A stretch of 16,611 bases of DNA from a virus. This document shows positions 64 to 13,548 of the stretch, piece after piece (position 1 is the stretch's first letter; every line of letters begins with the position of its first letter). A program made the position numbers and the translations under genes. Below the pieces are notes generated by a model that was given only the letters and a program-made list of their open reading frames with translations, was not told the origin of the DNA and made no database searches. The stretch lies in the UHGV virus genome UHGV-0310400; one strand, 5' to 3'.

Positions 64-140
64 GGAACGGTCTGCGTTGTCGGGAAGATACGTGATCTGA
101 TCCTTCAACTCAGCAAAAGTTCGATTTATTCAACAAAGCC
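1..140 (-). mobile_element. Terminal segment of an IS903-group (IS5 family) insertion sequence; the element continues beyond the window start
   Basis: Minus-strand sequence reading inward from position 140 is GGCTTTGTTGAATAAATCGAACTTTTGCTGAGTTGAAGGATCAGATCACG..., which I recognise from memory as the IS903/Tn903 terminal inverted repeat and adjacent sequence, with a few substitutions. The outermost base of the inverted repeat is at 140. Not verified by alignment. Confidence 0.75.
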
Positions 141-1384
141 AAATCACCAGCAAATAATCCGTGATCAGTAATGCGAATATAAGCGACTTGCTGATTTGCT
201 GCTTTCGTTATACCACCATAAACGCGAAGGCTGCGACTCATTGGGCGATCCCACAACTCTGCAACCTGCAGTTTATTTCCTCTCACGGTCCGCGTCTCAA
301 TTACAGCAAAAAGGCGATTTCTGACAACCCCCATACTCATGCAGTGATAGTTAACTGTGGGATAGTTTTCATGTAAATCTGTAAGCCATTCCGGCGTTGT
401 CCAGGTCTTCCCGTCATCTCCTGAGCGAACCCATGCAACATGGAGGTTATTTACACCATGGCGGTCTCCAGCCATAAAAGGCGCATAGATGACATTGTCA
501 TATACAAACGTTTTATCCTGCGTCCAGGCGTTGTACCACGGTGTATCTGTAATTTTAAATAACTCTCCCTGGATAAAATCTTCAGAAGCATAAAAAAGAG
601 GCTGGCCCGGTATTCTCTCAAATAAAAAACGAGCATTTTTAAATCGACTGACATCCGGAAGAGTTGATACTTTAAAAGTAAGCCCTAATCCGTCAATTTT
701 ATAACCTGGAGATGAGGCTTCAAGGCACGCGCTTATTGCAGTGGAATCGTCATTTATACCATCACCAACAGCTCCAAAATCTTTGGGGCTAATAGCATCA
801 CGCATTTTATCCTGGAACGTTCGGTACACAGCCCCAGAACCATACTGAATAAACCAACCAAAACCACCAACAACTCCGGCGATTGCAGCATCGACATAAT
901 TACGCATTGAGCGATTATTTACAGCGTCCTGCTCAAATGATGGATCTGCAAGGTTAGAAATTTTGTTTTGCTTTGCATCGTAATATTTTGCAAGCAGAGA
1001 GGGCTTCATCAATGCACGTCTGAACCACCCAAAACATTGCTGGATCAGCATCGTCAGGTAGTCAAAGGCATCTTCATGCACTTCGGGGAAAAATTTTCCC
1101 TGATTGCGAAGGTCTGTGTCCTGCACTACATCAAGCACACGATCTATCGTAATTCGCCATCCAGTAGCAAGCGGAGACGGAAGAACCACAGAACCGCCAC
1201 TATAAGTGCCCGCCCCAGTTACCGTATAACCGGTATCCAGGACCAATTCTGTTACGTTCCCGTTCAGGTCAGACACCTGAACAACCAGGTCTGATTTTCT
1301 GAAAATTCGAAAAGTATACGGAAACGATGTCGTAACGCCGTTACCGGTGTATTCGTTGTGGTCAACTTCGGTTGAGACCGTCAT
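110..1384 (-). pseudogene. Tail fibre/tailspike gene (T7 gp17 position), 3' end truncated by IS insertion at 140/141; native sequence is 141-1384
   Basis: The 424-aa ORF has an N-terminal segment (EYTGNGVTTSFPYTF...VLDTGYTVTG...) resembling tail-attachment domains of podovirus fibres and tailspikes. It carries a DFGAVGDGINDDSTA motif (plus 758-781) typical of pectate-lyase-like beta-helix depolymerases, and an Asp-box-like SGDDGKTW (plus 401-424). The last 10 codons and the stop lie inside the IS inverted repeat (110-140). SD GGAG precedes the ATG at 1384. Confidence 0.6.
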
Positions 1385-1487: not shown

Positions 1488-1504
1488 ATTACCTTTCGGG
1501 TAAT
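1488..1504. promoter_or_regulatory. 17-bp dyad operator-like site, copy 1 (ATTACC-TTTCG-GGTAAT)
   Basis: Perfect 6-bp inverted half-sites separated by 5 bp, in the divergent intergenic region between the tail fibre gene and the 85-aa gene. Same half-sites recur at 2608, 2701 and 3768. Confidence 0.5.
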
Positions 1505-1579: not shown

Positions 1580-1837
1580 ATGCAGCAGTATCACTATCCA
1601 CTGGAAGACGGATTTACCGAAAGGATTCACACGCCGGGAGGCGTCAGGTCACTGGTGGAGGGATCGCACTTGATGAAATTACTCCGGGATCTCGATAAGG
1701 ATGGATTTAATGTCGATGGCCCACTTGCCGAACTGACTGCACTGATTAACTACGTCACCAGCTCACAGATGTCTATGCAGGATCTGCAAACACATCTCGA
1801 CTATTGTGCCGAACAATTACGAAAACAAACCCGGTAA
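1580..1837 (+). CDS. Small (85 aa) SOS-controlled antirepressor-like protein, paralogous to the C-terminal domain of the Bro-N antirepressor at 2986-3696
   Basis: ATG at 1580 is preceded by GGAGA (1568-1572). The track ORF from 1457 would run through the operator and LexA box, so the shorter start is preferred. Residues GVRSLVEGSHLMKLLRDLDKDGFNVDGPLAELTALINYV...DLQTHLDY align by eye with GVLGLTENSLLMNLLNQLQEDGHDVSGAAAELTTMFCYI...DIQTHAEY of the 2986 gene. Confidence 0.6.
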   Translation: MQQYHYPLEDGFTERIHTPGGVRSLVEGSHLMKLLRDLDKDGFNVDGPLAELTALINYVTSSQMSMQDLQTHLDYCAEQLRKQTR

Positions 1838-1844
1838 ATTTAAA

Positions 1845-1860
1845 GGCCGCAAGAGCGGCC
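1845..1860. terminator. Bidirectional intrinsic terminator hairpin between convergent genes
   Basis: GGCCGC-AAGA-GCGGCC perfect 6-bp GC stem, flanked by AAATTTAAA upstream and TATCGTTTCGCTTT downstream. Sits between the stop of the 1580-1837 plus gene and the stop of the 1860-2588 minus gene. Confidence 0.6.
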
Positions 1861-2588
1861 TATCGTTTCGCTTTGTGCTCGTCCCAGCACGTTTTGCACC
1901 ATGCCATTAAGCCGTCCGCATTTTGATTATTAGGGTAAAAGCTGGTCCGTTTTCTGCGGACATTACAAATTGGGCACCACTTCATATGGCGTGTATTCTT
2001 TGGGCCATCGAGGCACCTTGCACACCACTTAGTCAATCCATCTGGATTTTTTGACGATTTCCGGAATTTGTCATATGGAAGGTTTATTCTGCATCGCAAA
2101 CACTGCTTGCGGCCACTTGAAACTCTGTTAGCTGATTCTTCTTTTGGCGGCGATACAGAAGGTATTCTTGCTGGCTCTGATACTGCCTGAGGTGCTTTTT
2201 TAGATGACTGAGACGATATGTCATCACCAGGGAATCTTCCATGATATGCCGGACGCGTTGACACTCCAGGTGGAAGCTCAGCTGTAAACGGCTTTGGCTG
2301 AATCAGTTGCCTCTCTTTTGCTAACTCCTGCTGTTTATAATATGTCTGGATTACCGCACTATCATAAGCAGGAGGTACGGAAATATCAGGCGCGTTACCT
2401 CCAGTTTTTTGAAACTGAGTAGATGTGTGTTCTATCACCTGTGTACGACTAATCGTTACCTCCCCATCTTCGGTCTTTATCGTTTTGTTCTGATTAACGA
2501 CCGTACGATCAGAGATCTTAGTCTTGTTCTGGTTGATAACGTAAATAATCACCGCAACCACACCAACAACTATCCAGAAAACTTCCAT
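1860..2588 (-). CDS. Membrane-anchored protein with N-terminal TM helix, Pro/Ser-rich linker and C-terminal tandem Cys4 zinc-ribbon-like repeats; function unknown
   Basis: 242-aa ORF. N-terminus FWIVVGVVAVIIYVI is hydrophobic. C-terminus has two repeats, CLRC-x22-WCARC and CPIC-x23-WCKTC, each with DGL just before the second Cys pair. Stop codon abuts the terminator hairpin. Confidence 0.6.
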   Translation of the reverse strand: MEVFWIVVGVVAVIIYVINQNKTKISDRTVVNQNKTIKTEDGEVTISRTQVIEHTSTQFQKTGGNAPDISVPPAYDSAVIQTYYKQQELAKERQLIQPKPFTAELPPGVSTRPAYHGRFPGDDISSQSSKKAPQAVSEPARIPSVSPPKEESANRVSSGRKQCLRCRINLPYDKFRKSSKNPDGLTKWCARCLDGPKNTRHMKWCPICNVRRKRTSFYPNNQNADGLMAWCKTCWDEHKAKR

Positions 2589-2751: not shown

Positions 2752-2829
2752 GGCACTGGCAAAATCCAGTGCCGGGATTGGCGTCCCGGGTTACTAAGTG
2801 GCGCATACCACGCCAGACGTGGTTTTTTT
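2752..2829 (+). promoter_or_regulatory. Structured leader upstream of the antirepressor gene: overlapping hairpins ending in a terminator-like stem plus T7 tract; candidate attenuator or small RNA
   Basis: Hairpin GGCACTGG-caaaat-CCAGTGCC (2752-2773) overlaps hairpin CCGGGA-ttggcg-TCCCGG (2772-2789). Then CCACG-ccaga-CGTGG (2808-2822) is followed by TTTTTTT (2823-2829). An alternative pairing TGGCG (2798-2802) with CGCCA (2811-2815) competes with the terminator stem. Confidence 0.35.
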
Positions 2830-2985
2830 ATGCGTTAAGCACAGCTATATCCGAATTATGGTGGGCTGGGCAGGGGTCCGAAAGGACGCCGGTACCACTT
2901 AGGCCGGTACGCCAACCTTGTCCAGTTCACCACCAGTAATTGGCGTTGCGGTGGTGATTAAAATCACTAAGTGGAGATAACCACC

Positions 2986-3696
2986 ATGGCTAATGCTCAA
3001 ACTTCCATCTTCAAATTTGAATCTGTTAACCCTATCCGTTCCATCATTATCGATGGCCAACCATGGTTTGTAGCCCAAGACGTTTGTAGTGCGCTGCGTA
3101 TCCAAAACGTCACCCAAGCACTTGAAAAACTGGATGATGATGAAAGGTCTATGTTCAACATAGGGCATGAACATCGTGCAATTTTTGACAGCCGAGTAAA
3201 AGAGATCAACATCATCTCCGAGTCAGGCCTCTACACACTGATCCTCCGCTGCCGCGACGCAGTGACACCAGGCACTATCCCCTACCGCTTTCGTAAATGG
3301 GTTACAGGTGAGGTTCTTCCTCAGATCCGCCGCACCGGAAGCTACATTAAAAACTCGCTCCCGCAGGAAGAACGCATAAAGATGGTTGCCGACCAGGTAG
3401 CCAACGCCACGGCGTCAGCAGTAATGCAGGCGATGAAGATAGAGAACAAAACCTACAGCGCCCCACTGAAGCCCGGCTACCGTAGCCTGATTCATTCGCC
3501 GTCTGGTGTTCTCGGCCTGACGGAGAACTCACTGCTGATGAATTTGCTGAACCAGTTGCAGGAAGACGGGCACGATGTATCGGGCGCGGCGGCGGAGCTG
3601 ACAACCATGTTTTGCTACATCGTTGGTGTGAGTAAATGCCTGCGTGATATCCAGACTCACGCGGAGTACATCAACGACAAAGCAGGATTCTTCTGA
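2986..3696 (+). CDS. Phage antirepressor with N-terminal Bro-N domain
   Basis: ATG at 2986 is preceded by GGAGA (2973-2977); the track ORF from 2971 uses an upstream GTG. N-terminus IFKFESVNPIRSIIIDGQPWFVAQDVCSALRIQN matches the Bro-N signature (F.F....IR....DG.PWF.A.DV...LG). C-terminal approximately 70 aa are paralogous to the 1580-1837 product. Confidence 0.8.
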   Translation: MANAQTSIFKFESVNPIRSIIIDGQPWFVAQDVCSALRIQNVTQALEKLDDDERSMFNIGHEHRAIFDSRVKEINIISESGLYTLILRCRDAVTPGTIPYRFRKWVTGEVLPQIRRTGSYIKNSLPQEERIKMVADQVANATASAVMQAMKIENKTYSAPLKPGYRSLIHSPSGVLGLTENSLLMNLLNQLQEDGHDVSGAAAELTTMFCYIVGVSKCLRDIQTHAEYINDKAGFF

Positions 3697-3704
3697 CGGG
3701 CGGC

Positions 3705-3730
3705 GGCACAGGGATGTGCCTTTAAATAAT
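3705..3730 (+). terminator. Intrinsic terminator downstream of the antirepressor gene
   Basis: GGCACA-ggga-TGTGCC stem-loop (3705-3720) followed by TTTAAATAATT. Confidence 0.45.
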
Positions 3731-3740
3731 TCTGTACAGA

Positions 3741-3769
3741 TTGCAGACCGGGGGTGAATAGCGTACTAT
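3741..3769 (+). promoter_or_regulatory. Sigma70-like promoter for the 3810-5411 operon
   Basis: TTGCAG (3741-3746), 17-bp spacer, TACTAT (3764-3769). The -10 element overlaps operator copy 4. Confidence 0.45.
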
Positions 3770-3784
3770 TACCTTAAAGGTAAA
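3768..3784. promoter_or_regulatory. 17-bp dyad operator-like site, copy 4 (ATTACC-TTAAA-GGTAAA)
   Basis: Identical to copy 2 over 16 of 17 bp. Overlaps the -10 and predicted transcription start of the cargo operon promoter. A second small inverted repeat CATGT-gttt-ACATG (3786-3799) follows. Confidence 0.5.
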
Positions 3785-3809
3785 CCATGTGTTTACATGA
3801 GGAGGAGAT

Positions 3810-4019
3810 ATGGGATTTTGGTTCGCTCGTACAAAAACGAGGGATAATGCACCCAGCCCTCAGGCAAAAAATACAGAAGTTCCGGCGTCAGCGCAGGTTA
3901 ACAAGCGTGGTGGTGTGTATATCTCATCACAGCAAATTTCTGAGCTTCCTGAGGTTAAGGAGATGCGTCGTCTCGCTGCTGCAATCGTTAAACAGGATCT
4001 TGCCACTGTAAGGAAATAG
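3810..4019 (+). CDS. Small (69 aa) hypothetical protein, first gene of the cargo operon
   Basis: Strong SD AGGAGG (3800-3805) 4 nt before the ATG at 3810. Stop TAG overlaps the GTG start of the next gene (TAGTG). Preferred over the alternative-frame ORF 3787-4011, which lacks an RBS. Confidence 0.5.
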   Translation: MGFWFARTKTRDNAPSPQAKNTEVPASAQVNKRGGVYISSQQISELPEVKEMRRLAAAIVKQDLATVRK

Positions 4020-4882
4020 TGTTGTTAGCTCTTCTAATTATCCCCATTCTGGTTAGTGGTTATATTATGATAACCGCTAACCAGTATCATTATTTCCGTT
4101 TATACCGACATGAAGGCCAGCTTCTTTATATGAAAGTAGCTGCATTAGGTACATATTGCCTTGTTGCTTCTGTAATAATTGCCGCATTTATAAAATATAA
4201 ATATCCTGATTTTCACCTAGTTCACGATATGGTGGAAACTTTTAATGTAACGTCAAAACCAGAAACAGATAGAATTTACATGTGGCTACTTCTTCTGTCA
4301 GTCACATCAATTTGCTTCTCTTTGTGTTATGTATCTTTTGTTTGGCTAAAAGATCTTCTTTTAGGTTGTTTTTATAAACGTGATATTTATGACAAAATAT
4401 CAGAGGCAATGAAAGCTAGGGTATTGCGAAAAACGTACTCCCAGGGTTCTTTAGATTTGCTATTGCTTGATGCAATCGAATCAGATCCTAAGAAACCAAT
4501 GTTAATTACTTTATCATCAAATAAAGTATACGTTGGAATAATAAATGGTTCTGGTGAGCCAACGGAAAATCAAGGGCCACACCAACACATATCTTTTGTT
4601 CCTTTAATGTCAGGGTACAGAAACAAAGAAAATTTATCTGTTACATTTACAAACGCTTACCCAGGTGAAATCCAAATTAAGCGCAGTGCTGCGATAAAAG
4701 GGATAAGCAAAAAGAAAGTTCAAGGTCTAGAAATTATGGTATCTATAGACGAAATAAGTCATATATCATGGTTTGACTTTGAAGTATATAAGGCAACAAA
4801 TAACAAAGTAGAAACAAAGGGTCATGTTGTTAATGTGACCAAAAATGGTCGCAACATATACTACAGAAGTGGCAGGAAATAA
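4019..4882 (+). CDS. Multi-pass membrane protein (about 3 TM helices) with a soluble C-terminal domain of roughly 170 aa; AT-rich cargo gene of unknown function
   Basis: 287-aa ORF. Hydrophobic segments LLALLIIPILVSGYIMI, MKVAALGTYCLVASVIIAAFI and YMWLLLLSVTSICFSLCYVSFVWL. Base composition is visibly more AT-rich than the flanking virion genes. GTG start is coupled to the upstream stop; an internal ATG at 4067 is an alternative. Confidence 0.65.
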   Translation: MLLALLIIPILVSGYIMITANQYHYFRLYRHEGQLLYMKVAALGTYCLVASVIIAAFIKYKYPDFHLVHDMVETFNVTSKPETDRIYMWLLLLSVTSICFSLCYVSFVWLKDLLLGCFYKRDIYDKISEAMKARVLRKTYSQGSLDLLLLDAIESDPKKPMLITLSSNKVYVGIINGSGEPTENQGPHQHISFVPLMSGYRNKENLSVTFTNAYPGEIQIKRSAAIKGISKKKVQGLEIMVSIDEISHISWFDFEVYKATNNKVETKGHVVNVTKNGRNIYYRSGRK

Positions 4883-4907
4883 ATTTTACGCAGTTTAGGT
4901 GGCTTAT

Positions 4908-5411
4908 ATGGATAATACTATCTTAGGCGCATTGATAGGTGCTGTTATTGCTATAGTTTCCACTTATATAAATGCAGGACAAGGATACAAAAACAGCATA
5001 AGATTAGAGCGACAAAAAATATTAAGGGATAAACGCGAGCAATTATTTATAAATTGTATACTTACTAAAAAAGTCATAGATTCAAGCACAATTACCATTC
5101 TCAATTTCGTAAAAAATGCCAGATACCACTCTGATAGTAAATTTGACGTATCAAGAGCGAATCCGTTGCAAACGATGGAAATGCTAATAAACATATACCT
5201 TCCTGAGTATAAAAAAGACTTACAAGAACTCAATAATGCGTATCAAGAATTTCACAAATACTACTCTCAATATACATGTGCACATACCTTCAAAAATATG
5301 CCTGATAATGAGAAGTCGAGGTTTATTGAGGAGGCTGATTTTTATGCAAAAAAGATATATGGCAAACTTAATGATATTAAGGACAAGATATCATTAAACT
5401 CAATAGTATAA
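4908..5411 (+). CDS. Single-pass membrane protein (N-terminal TM helix plus soluble domain of about 140 aa); AT-rich cargo gene of unknown function
   Basis: ATG at 4908 with SD AGGTGG (4897-4902); the track ORF starts at an upstream GTG at 4899. N-terminus NTILGALIGAVIAIVSTYI is hydrophobic. Very AT-rich. Followed by a GC-rich palindrome and the terminator at 5496-5513. Confidence 0.6.
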   Translation: MDNTILGALIGAVIAIVSTYINAGQGYKNSIRLERQKILRDKREQLFINCILTKKVIDSSTITILNFVKNARYHSDSKFDVSRANPLQTMEMLINIYLPEYKKDLQELNNAYQEFHKYYSQYTCAHTFKNMPDNEKSRFIEEADFYAKKIYGKLNDIKDKISLNSIV

Positions 5412-5462
5412 CAGCGATACTGCCGCTGACGGCTCCCGCTGCGGTGGGCGTTCTGCGGATTC

Positions 5463-5474
5463 CCGCCCGGGCGG
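5463..5474. repeat. Perfect 12-bp GC palindrome CCGCCCGGGCGG inside a short GC-rich intergenic segment
   Basis: The segment from about 5415 to 5485 is strongly GC-rich between two AT-rich genes and contains this palindrome plus flanking CCGCTG/CAGCGG repeats. Confidence 0.4.
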
Positions 5475-5495
5475 CGGTGGCATTCGTTAAAAACA

Positions 5496-5513
5496 AGGCC
5501 GCGAAAGCGGCCT
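5496..5513. terminator. Bidirectional intrinsic terminator between convergent cargo genes
   Basis: AGGCCGC-gaaa-GCGGCCT 7-bp stem. On the minus strand it is followed by TTGTTTTT, on the plus strand by TGTTTGAT. Lies directly after the stop of the 5520-6371 gene. Confidence 0.6.
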
Positions 5514-5519
5514 GTTTGA

Positions 5520-6371
5520 TCACTGTGCAGTTTTCGCTGATCGATTTTCAGCTCTAAATTCAAGAACCGTTTCAATATTTCTTTCCTTCAGCATATCAAT
5601 AACATTTTTATTCATTTGACTATCACTGGTTAATAACTGGTAAACGTCGCTTCTCTCTTTATCAGAGTTTTCTTTAACAGCTGCTTTGCATGCCAAATGC
5701 TTATTGAAATTTTCTACATCGCTAGTACAGGAATTTACGGCTGCTGATGAAATATCAGACGCTGAAGAAACACCATCATCCAAACGTTTTATAGCATTTT
5801 CTATACATGAGTTAAGGGAATAAACGACAACTGAGCGATACCCTTCAGACGCACACCATTCTAAATTTCTTGAAGGATCGAGTGGTTTTACTTCGCTGGA
5901 TTGAATTAACTTGTCAAAAACTGACTTATATTCAATCTGTTTTTTATCTATAGCCCATACTTCAGTAGCTGATTTATAATTCCCCGTATGCCTATTAACA
6001 TCAAATCCATGTTTTATAAGCAAATCTGCCCATGAAAGATTTATTGATTCATTGTTATGAGGCCATTTTCCTGTCAGAACCGCCCCCATAGACCCCATAT
6101 ATCCGCCATATGATGGTATAGCACCATGGCTCAGTAACTTCTCAGCAACCACAGGGCAATTAATTACATAAGAGGCGTAAAGCCCATTCCATAAAGCCCC
6201 TCTATAGTAATCGCCACGATTAGGTTCTTTTAAGTCGATAGCCTTTGATAATTGTTCACACGTTTTGCATGCATCAAAGTTATCCTTATTGCATTGCAAT
6301 GAACTGGCAGCTGTAGGATTTACAGAGACTATTGAAAGCACTATGCCAAAAAACAAATTTATTTTTTTCAT
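5520..6371 (-). CDS. Secreted/periplasmic protein with cleavable signal peptide; AT-rich moron coupled to the last virion gene; function unknown
   Basis: 283-aa ORF. N-terminus MKKINLFFGIVLSIVSVNPTAASS is a classical Sec signal peptide. Multiple cysteines in the mature part. Start lies 2 nt from the stop of the 1129-aa gene. AT-rich relative to the virion genes. Confidence 0.65.
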   Translation of the reverse strand: MKKINLFFGIVLSIVSVNPTAASSLQCNKDNFDACKTCEQLSKAIDLKEPNRGDYYRGALWNGLYASYVINCPVVAEKLLSHGAIPSYGGYMGSMGAVLTGKWPHNNESINLSWADLLIKHGFDVNRHTGNYKSATEVWAIDKKQIEYKSVFDKLIQSSEVKPLDPSRNLEWCASEGYRSVVVYSLNSCIENAIKRLDDGVSSASDISSAAVNSCTSDVENFNKHLACKAAVKENSDKERSDVYQLLTSDSQMNKNVIDMLKERNIETVLEFRAENRSAKTAQ

Positions 6372-6372
6372 C

Positions 6373-9300
6373 CTATTTCATCTGCTCTTCAACTTTATTT
6401 AGTAATGGTGATATCGCCCACAGGTTCTGAAAAGGTAGCATTTTACGGACCGCGTGGGTTTGCTGGCTGTCAAATTCTCCGTTAAGTACACCATTCGCAA
6501 CCGTCGCGGCATCACCGCCAAGATCAAAGGTAGGACCAAGTAAAGCACCAATAGCATTACGACTCTGAAACCTTGATACCGGAGGCGCACCAAACATCGC
6601 GCCAAGACCAAACCTACCACCGCTTATGTTCTCAACGGTATTCAGCGGCTCAGAGAGCCAGCCAAGCATTCCGCCCCGGTCGATCCCCTCTTTCACAAGG
6701 TTATTCCAGCTGTAGTCAATATCGCGACCGCTTAACTTCTGTTTCATCATATAGACCATTGAGCCAAGCGCAATCGTGCCAAGCGCACCAAGATAGAATG
6801 CAGCATCGCCCTGCTGGATACCAGATACCAGCACCCTGTTATGCTGTGCGAAGATAAACGTTTTGAACTGCGTGATCATCTTCCAGCCTTCTTTACTAAA
6901 AAACAGCGGTGTATCACCTACGCCAGGCGTTACAATCACTGAGTCTACATCTTTCAGCACTGCAGACTGGAAAATCTCTCTAGCGAAACGGTCATCCCAC
7001 AGATGACTATGCCCGGTTAACAGCCCGTCCATATCCTCTCCGTGCTTCCCGAATTGCTCCCCGATTCGACGCAGAACATCTTCATTGATGCCGACCTGTG
7101 CCATCTTCCGCATTTCACTTTTGGAGAGCGTGCCACCAGCAGAAACTTGGCGAGCCGCGTCAAGTATCCTCGACTGCACTATCATCCCAGACCATGATTT
7201 AAGTGCGCTGTTCCACTGATTCATCAGCGTCCAGTTACCGAATTTCTGCGTCATCCAGTTCAGACCTCGCTCAGCGGCGCTTCTCCGGCTATAGGGGTCA
7301 GTAAGATCCGCTATAGCCTTTGTACGCGTAGACAGGACATAATCAAGCCCAACGGCCATTTCTCGCAAATCCCTGGTTGCAATTTTCACTGAGTCCATAT
7401 TTTTAAGCATGCTTACCATTGGTCCGAGAGATTTTCTCAGGCCATGCTGCATCATCGGTCGCATCAGATCAGTTGCAGCGGAGACAGTCATTCCACCAAG
7501 CAAACGGAGGAAGTTAATATTCCTAGCAACTCGCCCGGCACGAACAAAGAAACTGCGTGGATCTTGAGGTGCACCGTAAGTACCAAGCAGTCGATCACGC
7601 ATAGCCGTAATATCCCTAATATCAGCCTCCCGTTGCTTCTCAAGAACTGCACGTCGTTTAGGTGTTTTAGCCTCTTTTATTAGCCGGGTATATTCCTCAC
7701 TAACCTGACGGATTTGCTCCCCCATATCTTTACGGCCAAACTGCGCAGTCAGCTCAATTTCTGGTGCCACCTGCCGGAGATAACTTTCCATGATGTAGTT
7801 AACATCTGATTCAAGAAAATCTTCTATACGCTCATCAGGAATAAGCAGCGTTCTGCTTTTAGTGAAACCAGCCCGACCAACGAGTCTCTCTGGGATAATA
7901 TCGGCTGGTACAAGCCCGGAAGGTGCGCCTATTATTTTATTCACGATCTCGTCAGCAGCGTCCTCTGCTTCCTCTCGGGATAGAGGCTCCATCTGCTTCA
8001 GTGCTCGTTCGCGGCTTGCATTCAGCCTTGTGGTTGAATTTGCCCGTTTTTGCAGTCGGCGAAGCTCAGAACGATATTTCCGTGGATTATCCAGCAACTC
8101 CATATGGCGCTGATAGACAGGAAGCTCACTCTTTGCCTGCGCTATATCATCAAGGCGTGTTTTAAGGTCAGAGCTTTCTTTCATCATTCTTGCCTGAAGT
8201 TTTTCTGATGAAGTCTCGGCCAACTCTTTTTCTATTCTTGTAAGACGCGCCTGTGTGTCAGTCTCCTGAGATATAAGCTTATTTCGTTTATCCAGTTCTT
8301 CCATGAGTAGAATTTTTTTACCAGACCATTTCTCCGCTTCAGCGATTTCACTAGCGAGAGCATCAGCGCGCGGTGCCGATTCCTCTGCAGTTTTTAGCAA
8401 TGAATTTATCCTTTCAATTCGCTGACCTGCCTTGTCAGCACCTTTGGCACTAATCCCTTGTATCCAGTTGGCAATTCGCCCTCTGAATTCAGTGCGGTCG
8501 GAAAGTATCTTATCGAACTTATAAATGCGGGGAAGATAACTTTTCGCCGTCACGACATCGATATCCTCAGGAAGGATCCCCAGTTCCTGCATACGGGCTT
8601 TTGTGATCTCGAAAATGGGGCGGATTCTGGCGGCTGCTTGTGAAACCTCAGGAATATCACTCTGATCACCACGGCGCATGGCCATGCCAACAGCTTCATT
8701 GAAATCAATAAAGTTCATCCTCTTCACGCCGCGGGCGCTAACAGATTTGCTGTACTGCTGATAAGCATCACTAGTGGCTTCCATCTGCTTATAAAGCATG
8801 GCGTCGTATTGCTTAATCTTAGTCTCGACTGCCGTAAACGTAGCCAACCCCTCATCATTTTTGGCGAAGAAATAGTTATTTTCGGCAAGCTGCTGGTTAA
8901 TCTGACGGGAGACAAGAGATGGTGATTGCGCCAAGCGGCCAGCAGGAGTGACACTCAACGTTTTGTTAGCAAGTCCAAGTCCAGCGAGCTGTTCCTGATC
9001 GAGTGTGGTATTGAAAACCTGAGCTGCACCAATGCTTTGAGGAGAATCCATACCTCGCAAATGATTACCTACTGAGTTAACCACTGCCTCGCGCGCGCTA
9101 GGTCCAGCAAGTAGCTGTGCACCAGCACCAAGGATCCCACCAACGAGAGCATCAACAACAACGTTCGATACGCTCTCCATCGGTGAGCGAGCTTCCTGAG
9201 TGGCCTGTAATGCGGCTTCTGATACTCCCCCACCAGCAGCATTCGCCAGGGCAAAACGCCCTGCCGTCTCAGCAATACTTCCTCCACGCGCTACCGCCCC

Positions 9301-9762
9301 TACAGGGATGAACATTGCAGCCACATTAACCGGGTCTATCATTCCCATTGCTAAGCTTGAAATAGTACCAGCACCACCCATTTCAGATAGATATTCTCTA
9401 TCTGTTCTTTGCTTATCGATTCGATGTTTAATTGCCATTGTTTCTTCATGCGAACCGGAGTTGATAAACGAATCTGCAAAATCTTCATAGCCTTTAATAT
9501 CTGCTGCATCGTTATCAAATGGGTTATATCCTTCAACCCTGTCAAACTGACTGAAAGGAGCACTGGCAATAAAGCTACCCAGCGTGTTATCTATACGAAA
9601 TGCTGCTTGTCTAGACCTTTGAACGCGTTGATCACTGGTAAATGGGTTCACAGCAGAAAGCAAAGAAGGTGTTTCCATATAGAAATTACTGTCATCAGGT
9701 GCTGCTATTTGCTGAATATCCTCGCCAAGCAACTCTTTAGGATCCTGTTCATATATCGGCAT
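6373..9762 (-). CDS. Large internal virion/ejection protein (T7 gp16 position)
   Basis: 1129-aa ORF. Gly/Ala-rich hydrophobic N-terminal region (GGAGTISSLAMGMIDPVNVAAMFIPVGAVARGG...) and a central coiled-coil-like charged region (..EKELAETSSEKLQARMMKESSDLKTRLDDIAQAK..). Assigned by position and size in the gp11-to-gp16 series; no direct homology recognised. Confidence 0.55.
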   Translation of the reverse strand: MPIYEQDPKELLGEDIQQIAAPDDSNFYMETPSLLSAVNPFTSDQRVQRSRQAAFRIDNTLGSFIASAPFSQFDRVEGYNPFDNDAADIKGYEDFADSFINSGSHEETMAIKHRIDKQRTDREYLSEMGGAGTISSLAMGMIDPVNVAAMFIPVGAVARGGSIAETAGRFALANAAGGGVSEAALQATQEARSPMESVSNVVVDALVGGILGAGAQLLAGPSAREAVVNSVGNHLRGMDSPQSIGAAQVFNTTLDQEQLAGLGLANKTLSVTPAGRLAQSPSLVSRQINQQLAENNYFFAKNDEGLATFTAVETKIKQYDAMLYKQMEATSDAYQQYSKSVSARGVKRMNFIDFNEAVGMAMRRGDQSDIPEVSQAAARIRPIFEITKARMQELGILPEDIDVVTAKSYLPRIYKFDKILSDRTEFRGRIANWIQGISAKGADKAGQRIERINSLLKTAEESAPRADALASEIAEAEKWSGKKILLMEELDKRNKLISQETDTQARLTRIEKELAETSSEKLQARMMKESSDLKTRLDDIAQAKSELPVYQRHMELLDNPRKYRSELRRLQKRANSTTRLNASRERALKQMEPLSREEAEDAADEIVNKIIGAPSGLVPADIIPERLVGRAGFTKSRTLLIPDERIEDFLESDVNYIMESYLRQVAPEIELTAQFGRKDMGEQIRQVSEEYTRLIKEAKTPKRRAVLEKQREADIRDITAMRDRLLGTYGAPQDPRSFFVRAGRVARNINFLRLLGGMTVSAATDLMRPMMQHGLRKSLGPMVSMLKNMDSVKIATRDLREMAVGLDYVLSTRTKAIADLTDPYSRRSAAERGLNWMTQKFGNWTLMNQWNSALKSWSGMIVQSRILDAARQVSAGGTLSKSEMRKMAQVGINEDVLRRIGEQFGKHGEDMDGLLTGHSHLWDDRFAREIFQSAVLKDVDSVIVTPGVGDTPLFFSKEGWKMITQFKTFIFAQHNRVLVSGIQQGDAAFYLGALGTIALGSMVYMMKQKLSGRDIDYSWNNLVKEGIDRGGMLGWLSEPLNTVENISGGRFGLGAMFGAPPVSRFQSRNAIGALLGPTFDLGGDAATVANGVLNGEFDSQQTHAVRKMLPFQNLWAISPLLNKVEEQMK

Positions 9763-12509
9763 TATTTGCCCCCTGCGTATATATTGCTCGGAAGGTAATT
9801 GGCTGAACCATAACCGAATGGTTTGGTCAGATCTGGAGGAGTATATCCATCTTTATTGCTGAACTGCGGCAGCGGATTGCCTTCTCTCCGCACTCTAGCC
9901 TCATCAACACGCTGTTGCTGGAACTGAATGGTTTGCCTGTACATTGGAGATGTCAGCTGATCCGGCTTGAAACGAACAGGGAGACCATTTTCTCCAATAT
10001 AATTTCTCGGTTCTATCGCTCCGTTTGCGTCAGGCTGTAAAACCATAACAGCATAACTCCTATCCCTTGCCGTAAGGCCATCAGAAACAAGTATTAAGTC
10101 CGTATCACTGCGAGGACCGCCAAAGGATTTTGATTTAAGCTCGCGTTTTTCCTGCTCCCACTGCCCCTGTATCCAGTTACCAGCACCATTATTTACTCCG
10201 TACAATGCCTCAGGTGCATACTTCATAACCTCTGCTTTGCCATTAACCGTAGAAACTCCCCAAGTGGTTCTGATCATGGCATTGGTCATTTTCTCAGCCT
10301 GTTCTGCATCGCCACCTGTCTGTACAAAGTTAGCATCGTAAATTGTCTGGTAATCTCGCTGATAGGCCGCATTTGATTTTCCTGGATCGGTAATATCCGG
10401 AGACCACGAACCAAAGGAAGTCAGACTGCTGGCGTTATTTTGTGCAGCAGTTGCCCTCGCCGCGACATATTTTTTGTCTCGCATGGCAGTGGAAAGCATC
10501 TGTTTCATTCGGTCATCCTGTTGGAACACCTGGCTGTAAGCCATATCAACAGCCTTATCCTCCGGCACGCCAGCGCGGGAATAATCGTAAACCTTGCCGT
10601 AAAATGCCATCGTACTTTTATCAAGTGTTGCCGCTGCCGCCGGATTATTATCGAATAACTGACCGTAGAATTTTGCCATCGGGACAACCAGCGCAGGATC
10701 TCTTGATGTTGCTCCACTGTTAAGCATTGTTTTAACCTGAGTTGGTATCATGCCGCTTTTAGTTGTGACGGTGACCAGTGTATTGATGCTCTGCGGATCA
10801 GATATGGAAAACGAAGGCGCGATATCCTGCGCGAAATAACGGTCTACCGCTGCCTGATTGTTTTTGTCGTTCGGGTCCAGCGGGAAGTTATTTTGCATTG
10901 AAGACACGAACCTGTTTCTTCCCTGCTGAATCTCCCACTCCCTATCCATCTCTTTAAATTTGGCCTGCATTTTCTCCCAGCGTTGCTGGTTAGCTGCAAA
11001 TCCAGGAGCGTTTGGATCCTGTGGACGTAAACGTTCAAGAATGTCTTGTCGTCCTTCTGGAGTGAGGTCTTTAGCGGCACCAATGACACCTCCATATTGT
11101 ATCTGCGCCTGCATATCCTTCCACTTCATAGCGCCAATGCGCGGACCATTGGCCCGGATAAAATCGTCCTCAGAAGGTAACTGCTCAGGTTTCAATCCTT
11201 CATCAAGGGCTGAATATGCATCTTTAACTACGGTGCTAAGCTGGTCCGCATACTGCTGGCGGTACTGATTTCTCAGCTCATTAGCCTGCCTCAATGCCTG
11301 TATTTGCATTTGAGGGCTCATAGCATCAAATGCCGCATTGCCCGTATAACGCTTAGGTGAATCAAGGTTAGTTAGACCAAGGGCTGCCGAGATACCAGTT
11401 TCAAGCTGTTCGGTGCTATAAGGCATACTGCCATTTTCGTGTTTAATAATCCCAGCACATAAAGCAGCTAGTGTCTTTGGGTTAGAGATATCAAGCTGAT
11501 CATTCTCCCCAACACCAAGCTCACCACACAATGCCCTAATATAAGCATCAGTATTATTACCATCACTAGCCGGAGCATAACGATTAACAATCTCGCTAAC
11601 GGTGTCATAGCCTTGACGCTGGTAAGACAACATATTTTTACCCAACGCGCGGATTCCATGCTCAGGGGTAGCAAACGTTGCAAAACGTCCATCGCTACCG
11701 ATCTGACCTTCCCACGGGTTAGATTTGCTCGCTTCAATATTACCAGGATTATTATTACGTAAACCACGAGCATCCAATGAATTACCATGTGACATTGCAC
11801 GGCTCACACCGTCAAGATCCCCTGGCTCTCCATTAACCTGAAGAAACTCGTTGTATTTTTGAGCGATATTTCCTATCCATGCTTGCTGCCCCATTTGTTC
11901 CTTGAGCTGAGTTTTCTGCTGAACACGCCACTCATCAGGAAGCCCATGCGCATCAGCGTATTGATCAATAGATTCAAATCGCTGCTTGGCTAAATCGACA
12001 AATGCTTGGTTATCGCTATATAGCCCCGCAGACTGAGTGACAGCCAATGCATTTCCTGACAAATACGTTTGATCTTGGAATTGCTGAAACTGCCCAACTT
12101 CATATCGACGTGCCTGATTGTAATAAGACTGCATAGACTGCTGGAGTTGAAAGGATAATTTATTCCTTTCCTCACTTTCAGGAATTGAGCCTAATAATGC
12201 CTGAGCCCTTTCCTGCATATTTTTCATAACAGCGTCACTCTGACCAAGAGCGTTTTTACCCTGTTTAGAAATCAGCCCATTTTCTGGGTTGTTAATCTGG
12301 TCATCTGCAAATTGGTTAAATTGCAGTAACGCCTCCTGGGCCATAGCAACATTCGCTTTCTGCCTGGCTTCACCATATGCCACCGCATACTGATCTGCGA
12401 CATTCGCCAGCACCTGACCTGCTTGAGGAACATCGAAGGTTTGAAAACCACCGGTTTGCACACCACGACTTTGCACCTGGCGTCCGGATGTAGTAGGAAC
12501 AACAGGCAT
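9762..12509 (-). CDS. Internal virion/ejection protein (T7 gp15 position) with a conserved motif block that may be a cell-wall-active domain
   Basis: 915-aa ORF, start overlapping the upstream stop. Residues about 245-330 (plus 11520-11777) contain RGLRNNNPGNIEASKSNPWEGQ...GRFATFATPEHGIRA, which looks like a conserved enzymatic motif; the family is not identified with certainty. Confidence 0.55.
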   Translation of the reverse strand: MPVVPTTSGRQVQSRGVQTGGFQTFDVPQAGQVLANVADQYAVAYGEARQKANVAMAQEALLQFNQFADDQINNPENGLISKQGKNALGQSDAVMKNMQERAQALLGSIPESEERNKLSFQLQQSMQSYYNQARRYEVGQFQQFQDQTYLSGNALAVTQSAGLYSDNQAFVDLAKQRFESIDQYADAHGLPDEWRVQQKTQLKEQMGQQAWIGNIAQKYNEFLQVNGEPGDLDGVSRAMSHGNSLDARGLRNNNPGNIEASKSNPWEGQIGSDGRFATFATPEHGIRALGKNMLSYQRQGYDTVSEIVNRYAPASDGNNTDAYIRALCGELGVGENDQLDISNPKTLAALCAGIIKHENGSMPYSTEQLETGISAALGLTNLDSPKRYTGNAAFDAMSPQMQIQALRQANELRNQYRQQYADQLSTVVKDAYSALDEGLKPEQLPSEDDFIRANGPRIGAMKWKDMQAQIQYGGVIGAAKDLTPEGRQDILERLRPQDPNAPGFAANQQRWEKMQAKFKEMDREWEIQQGRNRFVSSMQNNFPLDPNDKNNQAAVDRYFAQDIAPSFSISDPQSINTLVTVTTKSGMIPTQVKTMLNSGATSRDPALVVPMAKFYGQLFDNNPAAAATLDKSTMAFYGKVYDYSRAGVPEDKAVDMAYSQVFQQDDRMKQMLSTAMRDKKYVAARATAAQNNASSLTSFGSWSPDITDPGKSNAAYQRDYQTIYDANFVQTGGDAEQAEKMTNAMIRTTWGVSTVNGKAEVMKYAPEALYGVNNGAGNWIQGQWEQEKRELKSKSFGGPRSDTDLILVSDGLTARDRSYAVMVLQPDANGAIEPRNYIGENGLPVRFKPDQLTSPMYRQTIQFQQQRVDEARVRREGNPLPQFSNKDGYTPPDLTKPFGYGSANYLPSNIYAGGK

Positions 12510-13084
12510 CAGTAACCTCCTATTTTGAATCGGGAGTCAGAATTCATAAAACCTGAGTTAGATAACATTGGCGTCCCACCACTAGATGTACTTCCTTTAG
12601 AGAACGGACTCCACGTCCCACCAAACATCTGGTACGCACCGTATGCCTTCAGAGGCGCAGTGAGCAATGTTGTTGCTGCTCCCACATTCCCCTGTTTACG
12701 GGCTGAACTGGCTTCTGCTTTATAGTTGGCAGCCTGAACCTGATAACCGTAAGCCTCGCGTTGCGCGTTATTCACCGTCGTCAGCGAATCAAGAGCGCCG
12801 AACTGAGCAGTGTCACCAAATATATCCAGCGCGTTACCTGTAGATAAATCAGCGCCGGTCGCCCCCATTGTCGCCGCCTGTGTACCAAGCCGCTGTCGGG
12901 TCTCTCTGCGCCGTTGCTCAGCTTCAGCGTTACCTCTGTTTATTGCATCATTTGCCTGAGCTGTGGCTATATCTGCGTTCGCTTCTGCAACCTTCGAGGC
13001 ATACTTTCCCTGTTGGTACTGGGTGTATGCCTGAATGCCACTCATGGCGAGCATTGCGCCACCAGCAATAACCGGATCGCACAT
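12509..13084 (-). CDS. Small virion protein (T7 gp14 position), Ala/Gly/Gln-rich
   Basis: 191-aa ORF, close to the size of T7 gp14 (196 aa), coupled to both neighbours. Low-complexity Ala/Gln/Gly-rich composition. Assignment by synteny only. Confidence 0.45.
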   Translation of the reverse strand: MCDPVIAGGAMLAMSGIQAYTQYQQGKYASKVAEANADIATAQANDAINRGNAEAEQRRRETRQRLGTQAATMGATGADLSTGNALDIFGDTAQFGALDSLTTVNNAQREAYGYQVQAANYKAEASSARKQGNVGAATTLLTAPLKAYGAYQMFGGTWSPFSKGSTSSGGTPMLSNSGFMNSDSRFKIGGY

Positions 13085-13548
13085 TATTTTCTCTCCATGT
13101 GAAATCTGTGGAAATTAAGACCAAGAGCACCATAAGGCGCGGCTTCTTCAAGCCTGAATCCAAGCCAGTGCAGCCATGCTTTGGCAACATGGTTTCGCTC
13201 GTCGACGTAGTTTTCCAGGCGCGGATAAACTGCCAGCATCTGCTGCAATACAGGGCGGCAGTGGCGAAGAAATGTCTTCTGATATTTTTCAATACGGCTG
13301 GTTCCTACCAGCCAGGGCGTACCATTGCCACCGATCATTGACGCCGGAGATACGCCAAACATGGTTACCAGTTCTCCGTTCGCGAACCCTGACCAGGCCA
13401 TAGTCGCAGTGCGCAGACCAACACGCAGCGCATCTTTGGTAGTCATCAGCGATACCGCATACAGTTCGTCAATATCAGCCTGACGAACATCCGGCAAAAT
13501 CATCTGAAGATGCTCTTCGGTAGCGGGAATAATTTGAACATCGATCAT
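13084..13548 (-). CDS. Small virion-associated protein (T7 gp13 position)
   Basis: 154-aa ORF, overlapping the stops and starts of both neighbours. Assignment by synteny only. Confidence 0.4.
   Translation of the reverse strand: MIDVQIIPATEEHLQMILPDVRQADIDELYAVSLMTTKDALRVGLRTATMAWSGFANGELVTMFGVSPASMIGGNGTPWLVGTSRIEKYQKTFLRHCRPVLQQMLAVYPRLENYVDERNHVAKAWLHWLGFRLEEAAPYGALGLNFHRFHMERK

What the first reader, a model, noticed from the sequence alone, without database searches (positions are those of the whole stretch)
3741..5520. AT-rich, operator-controlled operon of two membrane proteins: candidate undescribed exclusion or defence cassette
Three translationally coupled genes (69 aa, 287 aa with about 3 TM helices, 167-170 aa with one TM helix) sit behind their own promoter, whose -10 overlaps a dyad operator, and are insulated by terminators on both sides. 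The two membrane-protein genes are far more AT-rich than the surrounding virion genes, which points to separate horizontal acquisition. I recognise no domain in either protein. The location, between ejection genes and the tail fibre gene, is the classic moron slot where P22-type phages carry sieA.
Basis: partly seen in the sequence, partly recalled or inferred. Interest (0 to 1): 0.8.

Follow-up and report, generated by a model that had tools for sequence, protein, structure and literature searches.

The report
Prophage membrane-protein cassette, candidate phage exclusion
The operon is real, but its conserved core is an uncharacterised gene pair (a small soluble protein plus a three-helix membrane protein with an Sm-like cytoplasmic domain) that moves between the accessory slots of many prophages, which makes it a good but untested candidate for a new anti-phage system.

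Summary
Window 3741-5520 carries a promoter with a dyad operator, three same-strand genes (69, 287 and 167 aa), AT-rich cargo and a strong downstream terminator. It lies between internal-virion (ejection) genes and an endosialidase tail fibre gene of an epsilon15/phiV10-like E. coli prophage.

Three corrections:
1. The promoter and dyad belong to the slot, not the cargo. TTACC-N5-GGTAA occurs four times in this accessory region, including before the isrK/C4-ant operon, and it precedes other cargo in relatives.
2. The conserved unit is the 69-aa plus 287-aa pair. It recurs across Proteobacteria in prophage accessory slots: downstream of antiterminator Q, next to integrases, and in the P2 old/tin hotspot beside bSEFIR.
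3. The 167-aa gene is a rare E. coli-only add-on that truncated a resident 53-aa gene.

The best reading is a new two-gene membrane exclusion or abortive-infection module. This rests on genomic association only. Interest is about 0.6.

The parts
3705..3720 (+). Short hairpin (GGCACA-GGGA-TGTGCC) after the BRO-N/ant gene stop. At best a weak terminator.
   Evidence: Inverted repeat found. The fold is no better than shuffled sequence (z -0.48). The sequence is conserved in relatives.
3741..3769 (+). Sigma-70-like promoter: TTGCAG, 17-nt spacer, TACTAT. It belongs to the slot, not to the cargo.
   Evidence: Read from the sequence. It matches 7 of 12 consensus positions, below the scanner threshold. 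It is conserved in TL-2011b, which carries different cargo, and homology to that phage breaks only after position 3785.
3769..3783 (.). Dyad operator TTACCTT-A-AAGGTAA that shares a base with the -10 element. One of four TTACC-N5-GGTAA sites in the window; the others start at 1489, 2609 and 2702.
   Evidence: four sites against 0.02 expected by chance. The motif is conserved at equivalent promoters in loci L001-L004.
3810..4019 (+). Gene for the 69-aa soluble partner protein (phrog_5739). Core motif is a beta-hairpin followed by a helix: ...RGGVYISSQQISELPEVKEM...
   Evidence: Homologues lie directly upstream of the large gene in 43 of 63 loci, and in 21 of 21 IMG/VR contigs. Alignment A6. dN/dS 0.07-0.11, from few differences. 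No Pfam or PDB relative.
4019..4882 (+). Gene for the 287-aa inner-membrane protein (phrog_3630): three N-terminal transmembrane helices and a cytoplasmic Sm/LSm-like beta-barrel at about residues 145-252. Invariant residues are G44, Y171, S198, G199, R201 and Y214.
   Evidence: The family has 2,785 representatives at 50% identity. dN/dS 0.089.
4049..4084 (+). 15-bp RNA hairpin with a U-rich tail, about 30 nt inside the 287-aa ORF. Possible intragenic attenuator.
   Evidence: Flagged. Free energy -22.5 kcal/mol, z -6.1. Retained in enterobacterial alleles with three doubly changed pairs, but the shuffle control is not decisive.
4908..5411 (+). Gene for a 167-aa protein with one transmembrane helix and an all-helical remainder (phrog_36918). 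An orphan add-on with its own AGGTGG ribosome-binding site.
   Evidence: 13 clusters only. Present in 8 of 5426 E. coli genomes, always with the pair. Absent from the phage record collection. The AF2 model is poor (pLDDT 49.5). dN/dS 0.46.
5416..5490 (+). 3' remnant (25 codons including the stop) of the slot's resident 53-aa signal-peptide protein gene, annotated elsewhere as 'transmembrane anchored protein'. It was truncated when the 167-aa gene was inserted.
5496..5513 (.). Bidirectional intrinsic terminator (AGGCCGC-GAAA-GCGGCCT) shared with the convergent gene 5520-6371.
   Evidence: Annotated as a terminator in phiV10.

Best explanation
**What the locus is.** The finding is a composite accessory locus in the immI-like region of an epsilon15/phiV10-like E. 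coli prophage. A resident promoter with a dyad operator belongs to a four-site regulon that also controls the isrK/C4-ant operon. This promoter drives exchangeable cargo.

**The cargo here.**
- A mobile two-gene module: a small soluble protein (69 aa) translationally coupled to a three-helix inner-membrane protein whose cytoplasmic C-terminus is an Sm-like barrel (287 aa).
- A separately acquired one-helix helical protein (167 aa) of unknown role.

**Most likely function (inferred, not shown).** The pair is a phage-exclusion or abortive-infection module.
- The membrane protein oligomerises through its Sm-like domain, as Sm proteins form rings.
- Its conserved loop residues (K169, Y171, G173, P195, S198, G199, R201, Y214) form a cytoplasmic ligand- or partner-binding face.
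- Its conserved transmembrane helices TM1 and TM2 act in the membrane, either collapsing membrane potential or blocking entry of incoming DNA.
- The small protein acts as the regulatory partner: an antitoxin-like inhibitor or a trigger adaptor.

**Shown versus inferred.** Shown here: gene structure, purifying selection, the fold assignment, strict pairing of the two genes, mobility between prophage accessory slots, and the shared operator. Inferred: the anti-phage role, oligomerisation, membrane action and the role of the small protein.
For: **Pairing**
- jackhmmer finds a homologous small ORF ending within 80 nt upstream of the large gene in 43 of 63 loci. The loci span Alpha-, Beta- and Gammaproteobacteria.
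- More diverged small ORFs with the same hairpin-helix core precede the large gene in most of the remaining loci.
- In IMG/VR, 21 of 21 viral contigs with a small-gene homologue have the large gene directly downstream.

**Mobility into accessory or defence positions**
- The same epsilon15-like slot in Providencia.
- Between integrase and the prophage end in Citrobacter, Cronobacter phiES15, Shewanella, Vibrio lentus and V. cholerae.
- Directly downstream of antiterminator Q, or between RusA and the holin genes, in lambdoid prophages.
- Between tail chaperone genes and the tape-measure gene in a Proteus prophage.
- In the P2 gpA-Q hotspot of SEN4/SEN5 and of a Klebsiella phage, where it sits beside a bSEFIR gene. 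PMC9122126 showed that this locus is an antiviral hotspot.
- On a Xanthomonas island with BrxR-WYL and E2/ThiF/JAB genes.
- CBASS cyclases, PD-T4-6, MADS and Mokosh genes occur among the neighbours of 22 diverse loci.

**Protein features**
- The family is large (2,785 representatives) and unannotated.
- Purifying selection: dN/dS 0.089.
- Conserved residues lie in TM1, loop 1 and TM2 as well as in the Sm loops, so the membrane part is more than an anchor.

**Local context**
- The slot carries other conflict cargo in relatives, such as a YafO toxin in TL-2011b.
- The position is analogous to P22 sieA.
Against: - No experiment exists, and no homology to any characterised defence, exclusion or toxin protein was found.
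- Association evidence is weaker outside the enteric prophages. Many neighbours of the non-enteric loci are housekeeping genes such as GGDEF, MFS and ABC.
- The cassette promoter carries the same operator as the antirepressor operon. It may therefore be repressed in a stable lysogen, which fits a lytic-phase function better than constitutive lysogen protection.
- The AF2 model is of only moderate confidence (pLDDT 71.6). The fold match covers 60-75 residues of a very common small barrel.
- In one prophage the small gene is followed by a DUF2335 protein instead of the 287-aa gene.
Confidence: 0.5

Rival explanations
1. The pair is a toxin-antitoxin or addiction module. The 287-aa membrane protein is the toxin and the small upstream protein its antitoxin. 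Its main role is to stabilise the prophage or island rather than to stop other phages.
For: - The gene order and 1-nt overlap are typical of type II TA operons.
- In TL-2011b the same slot carries a small gene followed by a YafO toxin.
- A strong hairpin with a U-rich tail just inside the large gene could bias expression towards the small protein.
- The module often lies at the ends of integrative elements.
Against: - The small protein shows no similarity to known antitoxin folds: hhalign against AbrB is negative and there is no Pfam hit.
- No PADLOC or Pfam toxin model matches.
- Many TA modules also act as abortive-infection systems, so this rival overlaps with the best explanation rather than excluding it.
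Confidence: 0.17
2. The module serves the phage's own lytic programme. For example, it could exclude competitors or modify the membrane early after infection or induction, or influence DNA ejection, entry or lysis timing. It would not be expressed in the lysogen.
For: - The cassette promoter carries the same TTACC-N5-GGTAA operator as the promoter of the isrK/C4-BRO-N (ant) operon and other promoters in the region, which suggests co-regulation with antirepressor genes.
- In lambdoid prophages the paralogue lies between Q and the lysis genes. A position downstream of the antiterminator suggests late transcription, but that was not tested.
Against: - The module is not a core gene of any phage type. 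It is present in only 28 of the 499 E. coli genomes that match the slot flanks.
- It occupies different positions in different phage architectures, and it also sits on non-phage islands.
- The lysis cassette of this phage family lies elsewhere.
Confidence: 0.15
3. The module is a host-fitness gene unrelated to phages, for example an MscS-like or other small channel that affects the envelope or stress tolerance.
For: - The architecture resembles MscS: three transmembrane helices with N-out, C-in topology, followed by an Sm-like beta domain, in about 286 aa (the MscS architecture is from my own knowledge).
- Many non-enteric loci have housekeeping neighbours.
Against: - No Pfam MS_channel hit in the window protein or in 102 family members.
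- hhalign against E. coli MscS is negative (probability 0.2).
- The MscS C-terminal alpha/beta domain is absent.
- The obligate small partner has no counterpart in MscS.
Confidence: 0.08
4. All three genes form one three-component system.
For: - They lie in one operon with no terminator between the genes.
- The 167-aa gene is never found without the pair in 5426 E. coli genomes.
- The 167-aa and 287-aa genes have similar AT-rich composition.
Against: - 20 of the 28 E. coli genomes with the pair lack the third gene.
- 16 of the 21 IMG/VR contigs, and all non-E. coli loci examined, lack it.
- Its insertion truncated a resident gene.
- It is under weaker constraint (dN/dS 0.46).
Confidence: 0.1

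Closest known systems
P22 SieA (superinfection exclusion A) in the immI region
   Same: - It occupies the same kind of position: between the ejection or internal-virion genes and the antirepressor region, before the tailspike or tail fibre gene.
- It is an inner-membrane protein (from my own knowledge) with its own annotated promoter.
   Different: - There is no sequence similarity: hhalign probability is 0.3 or lower against the 287-aa family and the 167-aa family.
- SieA is a single 164-aa protein. It has no obligate small partner and no Sm-like domain.
Lambda RexA/RexB two-component abortive infection system
   Same: Both are prophage-encoded pairs of a soluble protein and a polytopic inner-membrane protein. 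In Rex the membrane protein is thought to depolarise the cell on a trigger (from my own knowledge). This is a functional analogy for the proposed mechanism.
   Different: - No homology was detected through the PADLOC models.
- The size relationship is reversed: here the soluble partner is tiny (58-115 aa) and the membrane protein carries the large cytoplasmic domain.
Sm/LSm/Hfq and WYL small beta-barrel domains
   Different: - No sequence-level relationship: no Pfam LSM, Hfq or WYL hit, and hhalign against Hfq gives probability 0.2.
- Here the barrel is fused to three transmembrane helices.
- RNA or ligand binding and ring formation are untested.
MscS-family mechanosensitive channels
   Same: Similar size and architecture: three transmembrane helices followed by an Sm-like beta domain, with a cytoplasmic C-terminus (the MscS architecture is from my own knowledge).
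   Different: - No MS_channel Pfam match and a negative hhalign result.
- No C-terminal alpha/beta domain.
- An obligate small partner gene.
- Carried on prophages.
CBASS Cap15-type effectors (two transmembrane helices plus a small beta-barrel)
   Same: In both, transmembrane helices are fused to a small cytoplasmic beta-barrel. In Cap15 the barrel binds a signal and drives membrane disruption (from my own knowledge; cited in PMC9122126 as Duncan-Lowey et al. 2021).
   Different: - No PADLOC effector model matches.
- No cyclase or other signal-generating gene lies in the operon.
- The helix count differs, and there is an obligate small partner.
P1/P7-type immI (c4 antisense RNA and ant), also found in APSE phages; this applies to the neighbouring genes, not the cassette
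   Same: isrK and C4 RNAs lie directly upstream of a BRO-N/antirepressor gene. Both Rfam hits are above the gathering score. The same arrangement is described for APSE phages in PMC7313666.
   Different: Here the ant operon promoter and the cassette promoter share a TTACC-N5-GGTAA dyad. I found no description of this dyad, and the protein that binds it is unknown.

Membership tests
P22 SieA superinfection exclusion family | Sequence homology to SieA | tested here: not met
   hhalign of the 287-aa family (A4) and the 167-aa family (A5) against P22 SieA gives probability 0.3 or lower. The PHROG hits of both proteins are families of unknown function.
P22 SieA superinfection exclusion family | Position between the ejection genes and the immI/tailspike region | tested here: met
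   The P22 gene order is 7, 20, 16, sieA, mnt, arc, ant, 9. The window order is internal virion proteins, cassette, isrK/C4 with BRO-N, tail fibre.
P22 SieA superinfection exclusion family | Blocks DNA entry of superinfecting phage | not testable with these tools
   Needs plaquing, adsorption and DNA-entry assays.
Known anti-phage defence systems (PADLOC-DB v2.0.0) | Match to any component HMM | tested here: not met
   No hit for the three window proteins. Among 102 family members only two isolated weak hits appeared. The P2-type and lambdoid paralogues gave none. The library dates from 2023, so later systems are not covered.
Known anti-phage defence systems (PADLOC-DB v2.0.0) | Co-location with defence genes or mobile-element hotspots | tested here: met
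   The module sits in the P2 gpA-Q hotspot next to bSEFIR (PMC9122126). It is on an island with BrxR and E2/ThiF/JAB genes. CBASS, PD-T4-6, MADS and Mokosh genes occur among neighbours. All annotated contexts are prophages or islands. No formal enrichment statistic was computed.
Sm/LSm/Hfq superfamily | Sm fold: an N-terminal helix followed by a strongly bent five-stranded sheet | tested here: met
Sm/LSm/Hfq superfamily | Sm1/Sm2 sequence motifs or a profile match | tested here: not met
   No Pfam hit in the window protein or in 102 members. hhalign against E. coli Hfq gives probability 0.2. No PDB sequence hit.
Sm/LSm/Hfq superfamily | Hexameric or heptameric ring and RNA binding | not testable with these tools
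   Only single-chain prediction was available.
MscS mechanosensitive channel family | MS_channel profile match (TM3 plus the beta domain) | tested here: not met
   No Pfam hit.
MscS mechanosensitive channel family | Three transmembrane helices followed by an Sm-like beta domain and a C-terminal alpha/beta domain | tested here: inconclusive
   The three helices and the Sm-like domain are present. No alpha/beta domain follows: residues 262-287 are short and of low confidence.
Type II toxin-antitoxin operon | A small upstream gene that overlaps a larger downstream gene | tested here: met
   The TAG stop and GTG start share the G at 4019. The gap is 0-25 nt in the loci listed.
Type II toxin-antitoxin operon | A recognisable antitoxin or toxin fold or family | tested here: not met
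   No Pfam hit for 11 small proteins. hhalign against AbrB gives probability 0.3. The best PDB profile hit has E 0.035, to ribosome hibernation factor, which is not significant.
Type II toxin-antitoxin operon | Toxicity of the large protein, neutralised by the small one | not testable with these tools
   Needs expression experiments.

The most novel reading that the evidence does not exclude
The 69-aa and 287-aa pair is a widespread, previously unrecognised two-gene anti-phage system. In this reading a ring-forming Sm-like domain, tethered to the inner membrane by three conserved helices, senses a phage-derived nucleic acid or protein at the point of DNA entry. It then opens a membrane pore or blocks the entry channel. 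The small hairpin-helix protein acts as its inhibitor or trigger adaptor, and an intragenic attenuator hairpin sets their ratio. That would be a new mechanistic class of membrane-bound sensor-effector.
Probability: 0.22. Interest if true: 0.8.

Novelty: new variant of a known kind. Interest (0 to 1): 0.6.

Why it matters
- **A testable candidate.** If the pair is an anti-phage module, it adds a large and entirely unannotated family to the known defence repertoire: at least 2,785 clusters at 50% identity across Proteobacteria and beyond. Its architecture, a membrane-tethered Sm-like domain with an obligate mini-protein partner, was not found in the defence literature I searched. It is small, about 1.1 kb, and easy to test.
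- **A cargo slot in epsilon15/phiV10-like prophages.** The flanks match 499 of 5426 complete E. coli genomes. The cargo is driven by a resident promoter and operator that is part of a regulon shared with the c4/isrK-ant immunity region. This is useful for finding further cargo and for understanding when accessory genes are switched on.
- **If it is not defensive.** A conserved membrane Sm-like protein carried by so many mobile elements would still be an open question worth resolving.

Tried and rejected
**Family and profile searches that found nothing**
- Pfam, NCBIfam and PADLOC scans of all three proteins gave nothing above threshold. Scans of 102 family members, of 10 further small proteins from other loci, and of the P2-type and lambdoid paralogues also gave nothing.
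- PDB sequence-profile searches for the three families gave nothing significant. The best was E 0.035, the small protein against ribosome hibernation factor, which I treat as chance.

**Pairwise tests of specific ideas, all negative**
- The 287-aa family against MscS, Hfq and SieA.
- The small protein against AbrB.
- The 167-aa family against SieA and against the DUF2335 protein that replaces the 287-aa gene in another prophage.
- The 283-aa neighbour against SieA.

**Other leads**
- I tested whether the Klebsiella phage homologue belongs to the Rousset three-gene TIR plus transmembrane system. Its neighbour is a stand-alone bSEFIR gene and the pair hits no model, so I rejected this.
- I looked for fusions of the small and large proteins among 277 collected proteins and found none. 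The longer family members simply have a larger periplasmic loop between TM2 and TM3.
- The AF2 model of the 167-aa protein was too poor to use (pLDDT 49.5).
- The afdb50 fold library was unavailable.
- Literature searches by protein accession, by Sm-like or LSm with defence terms, and by phiV10 with exclusion found no description of these genes.
- The novel systems named in the 2026 P2/P4 hotspot paper do not correspond to this pair.

**Readings rejected**
- Lysis function: the lysis cassette lies elsewhere.
- Serotype conversion: no transferase features.

Full report
**1. What the window is**

The flanks of 3700-5520 match Escherichia phages phiv142-3, TL-2011b and phiV10 at 94-99% identity, but the interior matches nothing in 50,697 phage records. 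PHROG and Pfam hits identify:
- internal virion (ejection) proteins and tail proteins at 6373-16492, minus strand;
- a BRO-N/antirepressor gene at 2971-3696;
- an endosialidase tail fibre gene at 110-1384, minus strand.

The window is therefore the late/accessory end of an epsilon15/phiV10-like E. coli prophage with K1-type tail fibre domains. Near-identical prophages occur in complete E. coli genomes, and RefSeq calls the same three genes 'hypothetical'.

**2. Checking the observation**

The three plus-strand ORFs are present: 3810-4019, 4019-4882 and 4908-5411.

| Feature | 69-aa gene | 287-aa gene | 167-aa gene | Backbone |
|---|---|---|---|---|
| Transmembrane helices | none | three (about 1-22, 35-60, 85-116) | one (6-27 of the 170-aa ORF from 4899) | not applicable |
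| GC | 47.6% | 34.3% | 31.6% | 46.3% (whole window) |
| GC3 | 0.40 | 0.27 | 0.30 | 0.40-0.52 |
| dN/dS between alleles | 0.07-0.11 (few differences) | 0.089 | 0.46 | not applicable |

- The convergent neighbour 5520-6371 is also AT-rich (GC3 0.28).
- The first two genes overlap by one base. The third starts 25 nt downstream with its own ribosome-binding site.
- The downstream terminator at 5496-5513 is strong in both directions. The upstream hairpin at 3705-3720 is not better than chance.
- The 287-aa gene is clearly under purifying selection; the 69-aa estimate rests on only 1-2 non-synonymous and 4-5 synonymous changes; the 167-aa gene is under looser constraint.

**3. The promoter and operator belong to the slot**

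- TTGCAG, a 17-nt spacer and TACTAT (3741-3769) is followed immediately by the perfect dyad TTACCTTAAAGGTAA (3769-3783).
- The identical 15-mer recurs at 2609-2623. Variants of the form TTACC-N5-GGTAA lie at 1489-1503 and 2702-2716. That is four sites against 0.02 expected by chance, all within the accessory region.
- At three of the four sites a TAnnAT hexamer ends on the first T of the dyad.
- Relatives keep the dyads at equivalent promoters, including promoters in front of other cargo.
- Homology between the window and TL-2011b, which carries a small gene plus a YafO toxin in the slot, breaks right after the dyad at 3785 and resumes at 5411.
- The site at 2702 lies just upstream of Rfam hits to isrK (2753-2829) and C4 antisense RNA (2854-2937), which precede the BRO-N gene. 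This is the P1/P7-type c4-ant arrangement, also reported in APSE phages (PMC7313666).

The cassette therefore sits behind a resident promoter and operator that is part of a regulon shared with the antirepressor operon. The binding protein is unknown. This raises the possibility that the cassette is not expressed in a stable lysogen.

**4. The conserved unit is a two-gene module**

The 287-aa protein has few close relatives (32 hits, Enterobacterales). A profile search of 1.84 billion representatives found 2,785 proteins at E ≤ 0.001 and 1,628 at E ≤ 1e-10.

A small ORF lies directly upstream of the large gene:
- In genome, phage and metagenome loci, jackhmmer finds a homologous small ORF of 58-115 aa ending within 80 nt upstream in 43 of 63 loci.
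- In most of the remaining loci a more diverged small ORF with the same hairpin-helix core is present.
- In IMG/VR, 21 of 21 contigs with a small-gene homologue carry the large gene directly downstream.

The 167-aa gene behaves differently:
- It has only 13 related clusters.
- It is in 8 of the 28 complete E. coli genomes that carry the pair and in 5 of the 21 IMG/VR contigs.
- It is absent from every non-E. coli locus examined.
- Where it is present, only the last 25 codons of the slot's resident 53-aa signal-peptide gene remain.

It is therefore an add-on or an independent accessory gene. In one prophage, homology to the window stops exactly at the junction between the 69-aa and 287-aa genes, and a DUF2335 protein follows instead.

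**5. What the proteins look like**

- *Conserved positions.* Invariant or near-invariant residues lie in TM1, loop 1 and TM2 (P9, L11, G14, R30, G33, Y37, G44) and in the barrel (K169, Y171, G173, P195, S198, G199, R201, Y214).
- *No sequence relatives.* Pfam, NCBIfam, PADLOC and PDB sequence searches are all negative for the family.
- *MscS comparison.* The MscS-like architecture (three helices plus an Sm-like domain) has no sequence support.
- *Small protein.* It has no relatives of known function.
- *167-aa protein.* It is predicted to be all-helical, but at low confidence.

**6. Genomic contexts**

Every context with annotation is a prophage or integrative element, and the module sits at an accessory position in each:

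| Host or phage | Position of the module |
|---|---|
| Providencia | same epsilon15-like slot |
| Citrobacter, Cronobacter phiES15, Shewanella, Vibrio lentus, V. cholerae | between integrase and the element end |
| E. coli (lambdoid prophages; paralogue indexed in 462 collection blocks) | directly downstream of antiterminator Q |
| Enterobacter | between RusA and the holin genes |
| Proteus | between tail chaperone genes and the tape-measure gene |
| Salmonella SEN4/SEN5 (P2-like) | downstream of gpA, at the end of the circular record |
| Klebsiella phage (P2-like) | between gpA and portal gene Q, beside a bSEFIR gene |
| Xanthomonas | island with BrxR-WYL and E2/ThiF/JAB genes |

Rousset et al. 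showed that the gpA-Q locus is an antiviral hotspot (PMC9122126). A 2026 follow-up found that most randomly chosen unknown loci in P4 hotspots are defensive (PMC13586616).

Among the neighbours of 22 diverse non-enteric loci there are CBASS cyclases, PD-T4-6, MADS and Mokosh genes and integrases, but also many housekeeping genes.

**7. Interpretation**

The best-supported reading is a mobile two-gene membrane module that acts in conflicts between phages, by exclusion or abortive infection. The Sm-like domain would be the oligomerising and sensing part, the conserved helices the membrane-acting part, and the small protein the regulatory partner. I put the anti-phage role at about 0.5 and the specific mechanism lower.

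The rivals are a toxin-antitoxin or addiction role, a function in the phage's own lytic programme (suggested by the shared operator), an unrelated host-fitness channel, and a true three-gene system.

The positional analogy with P22 sieA is correct, but there is no homology to SieA.

**8. A further feature**

A 15-bp hairpin with a U-rich tail lies about 30 nt inside the 287-aa ORF (free energy -22.5 kcal/mol, z -6.1).
- It is retained in Providencia, Citrobacter, Symbiopectobacterium and Yersinia alleles, and three of its pairs have changed on both sides.
- The shuffle control is not decisive, and the hairpin is not universal in the family.
- It might attenuate transcription into the membrane-protein gene. 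This is a lead, not a finding.

**9. Verdict**

It needs redefinition as a pair plus an add-on, sitting behind a promoter and operator owned by the slot. I rate the novelty as a new variant of a known kind (prophage-borne membrane exclusion or abortive-infection modules) built from components with no characterised relatives. Interest is 0.6.

Noticed in passing
window 2753-2829 and 2854-2937 (+): There are Rfam matches above the gathering score to isrK Hfq-binding sRNA (67.7 bits) and C4 antisense RNA (66 bits). They lie directly upstream of the BRO-N/antirepressor gene at 2971-3696. This is a P1/P7-type immI (c4-ant) arrangement in an epsilon15-like prophage.
   Followed up: partly
window 1489-1503, 2609-2623, 2702-2716, 3769-3783: Four TTACC-N5-GGTAA dyads lie in promoter-like positions of the accessory region, against 0.02 expected by chance. 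They are conserved in relatives in front of different cargo genes. They look like the operators of one unknown regulator. The BRO-N protein and the prophage repressor are candidates.
   Followed up: partly
window 4049-4084 (+): A strong RNA hairpin (-22.5 kcal/mol, z -6.1) with a U-rich tail lies inside the 5' end of the 287-aa ORF. Enterobacterial alleles keep it, with some compensatory changes. It may be an intragenic attenuator.
   Followed up: partly
window 5520-6371 (-): An AT-rich gene (GC3 0.28) encodes a 283-aa cysteine-rich protein with a signal peptide and unknown function (phrog_6118). It occupies the place where TL-2011b has ant and arc, and looks like another acquired accessory gene.
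   Followed up: no
window 1860-2588 (-): A 242-aa protein has an N-terminal transmembrane helix and C-terminal zinc-ribbon repeats. The repeats give weak PHROG hits to endonuclease VII, HNH and Lar-like families. The gene is present in some relatives (L002) and absent in others (L001).
   Followed up: no
window 110-1384 (-): The tail fibre ORF has endosialidase N-terminal, beta-propeller and beta-barrel domains, but it stops after 424 aa inside the beta-barrel domain. The equivalent gene in a near-identical prophage is annotated as a pseudogene (L001). The gene may be truncated or frameshifted.
   Followed up: no
L002 5489-5600 and L003 6150-6269, matching window 3600-3719: In relatives, the last 112-120 bp of the BRO-N gene together with its hairpin is repeated in inverted orientation on the far side of the cargo slot. 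The slot is therefore bracketed by inverted repeats, which may help cargo exchange. The window lacks the second copy.
   Followed up: no
L004 3111-4058: In E. coli strain 4/4 the 69-aa gene is kept at 96.6% nucleotide identity. Homology to the window then ends exactly at the junction with the 287-aa gene, and a DUF2335 protein gene follows instead. Either the small gene is orphaned there, or it can pair with a different partner.
   Followed up: partly
window 1580-1837 (+) and 2971-3696 (+): The 85-aa protein is homologous to the C-terminal domain of the BRO-N protein (phrog_450 and phrog_15539). It is a stand-alone copy of the antirepressor C-terminal module, and it has its own dyad-bearing upstream region.
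   Followed up: no
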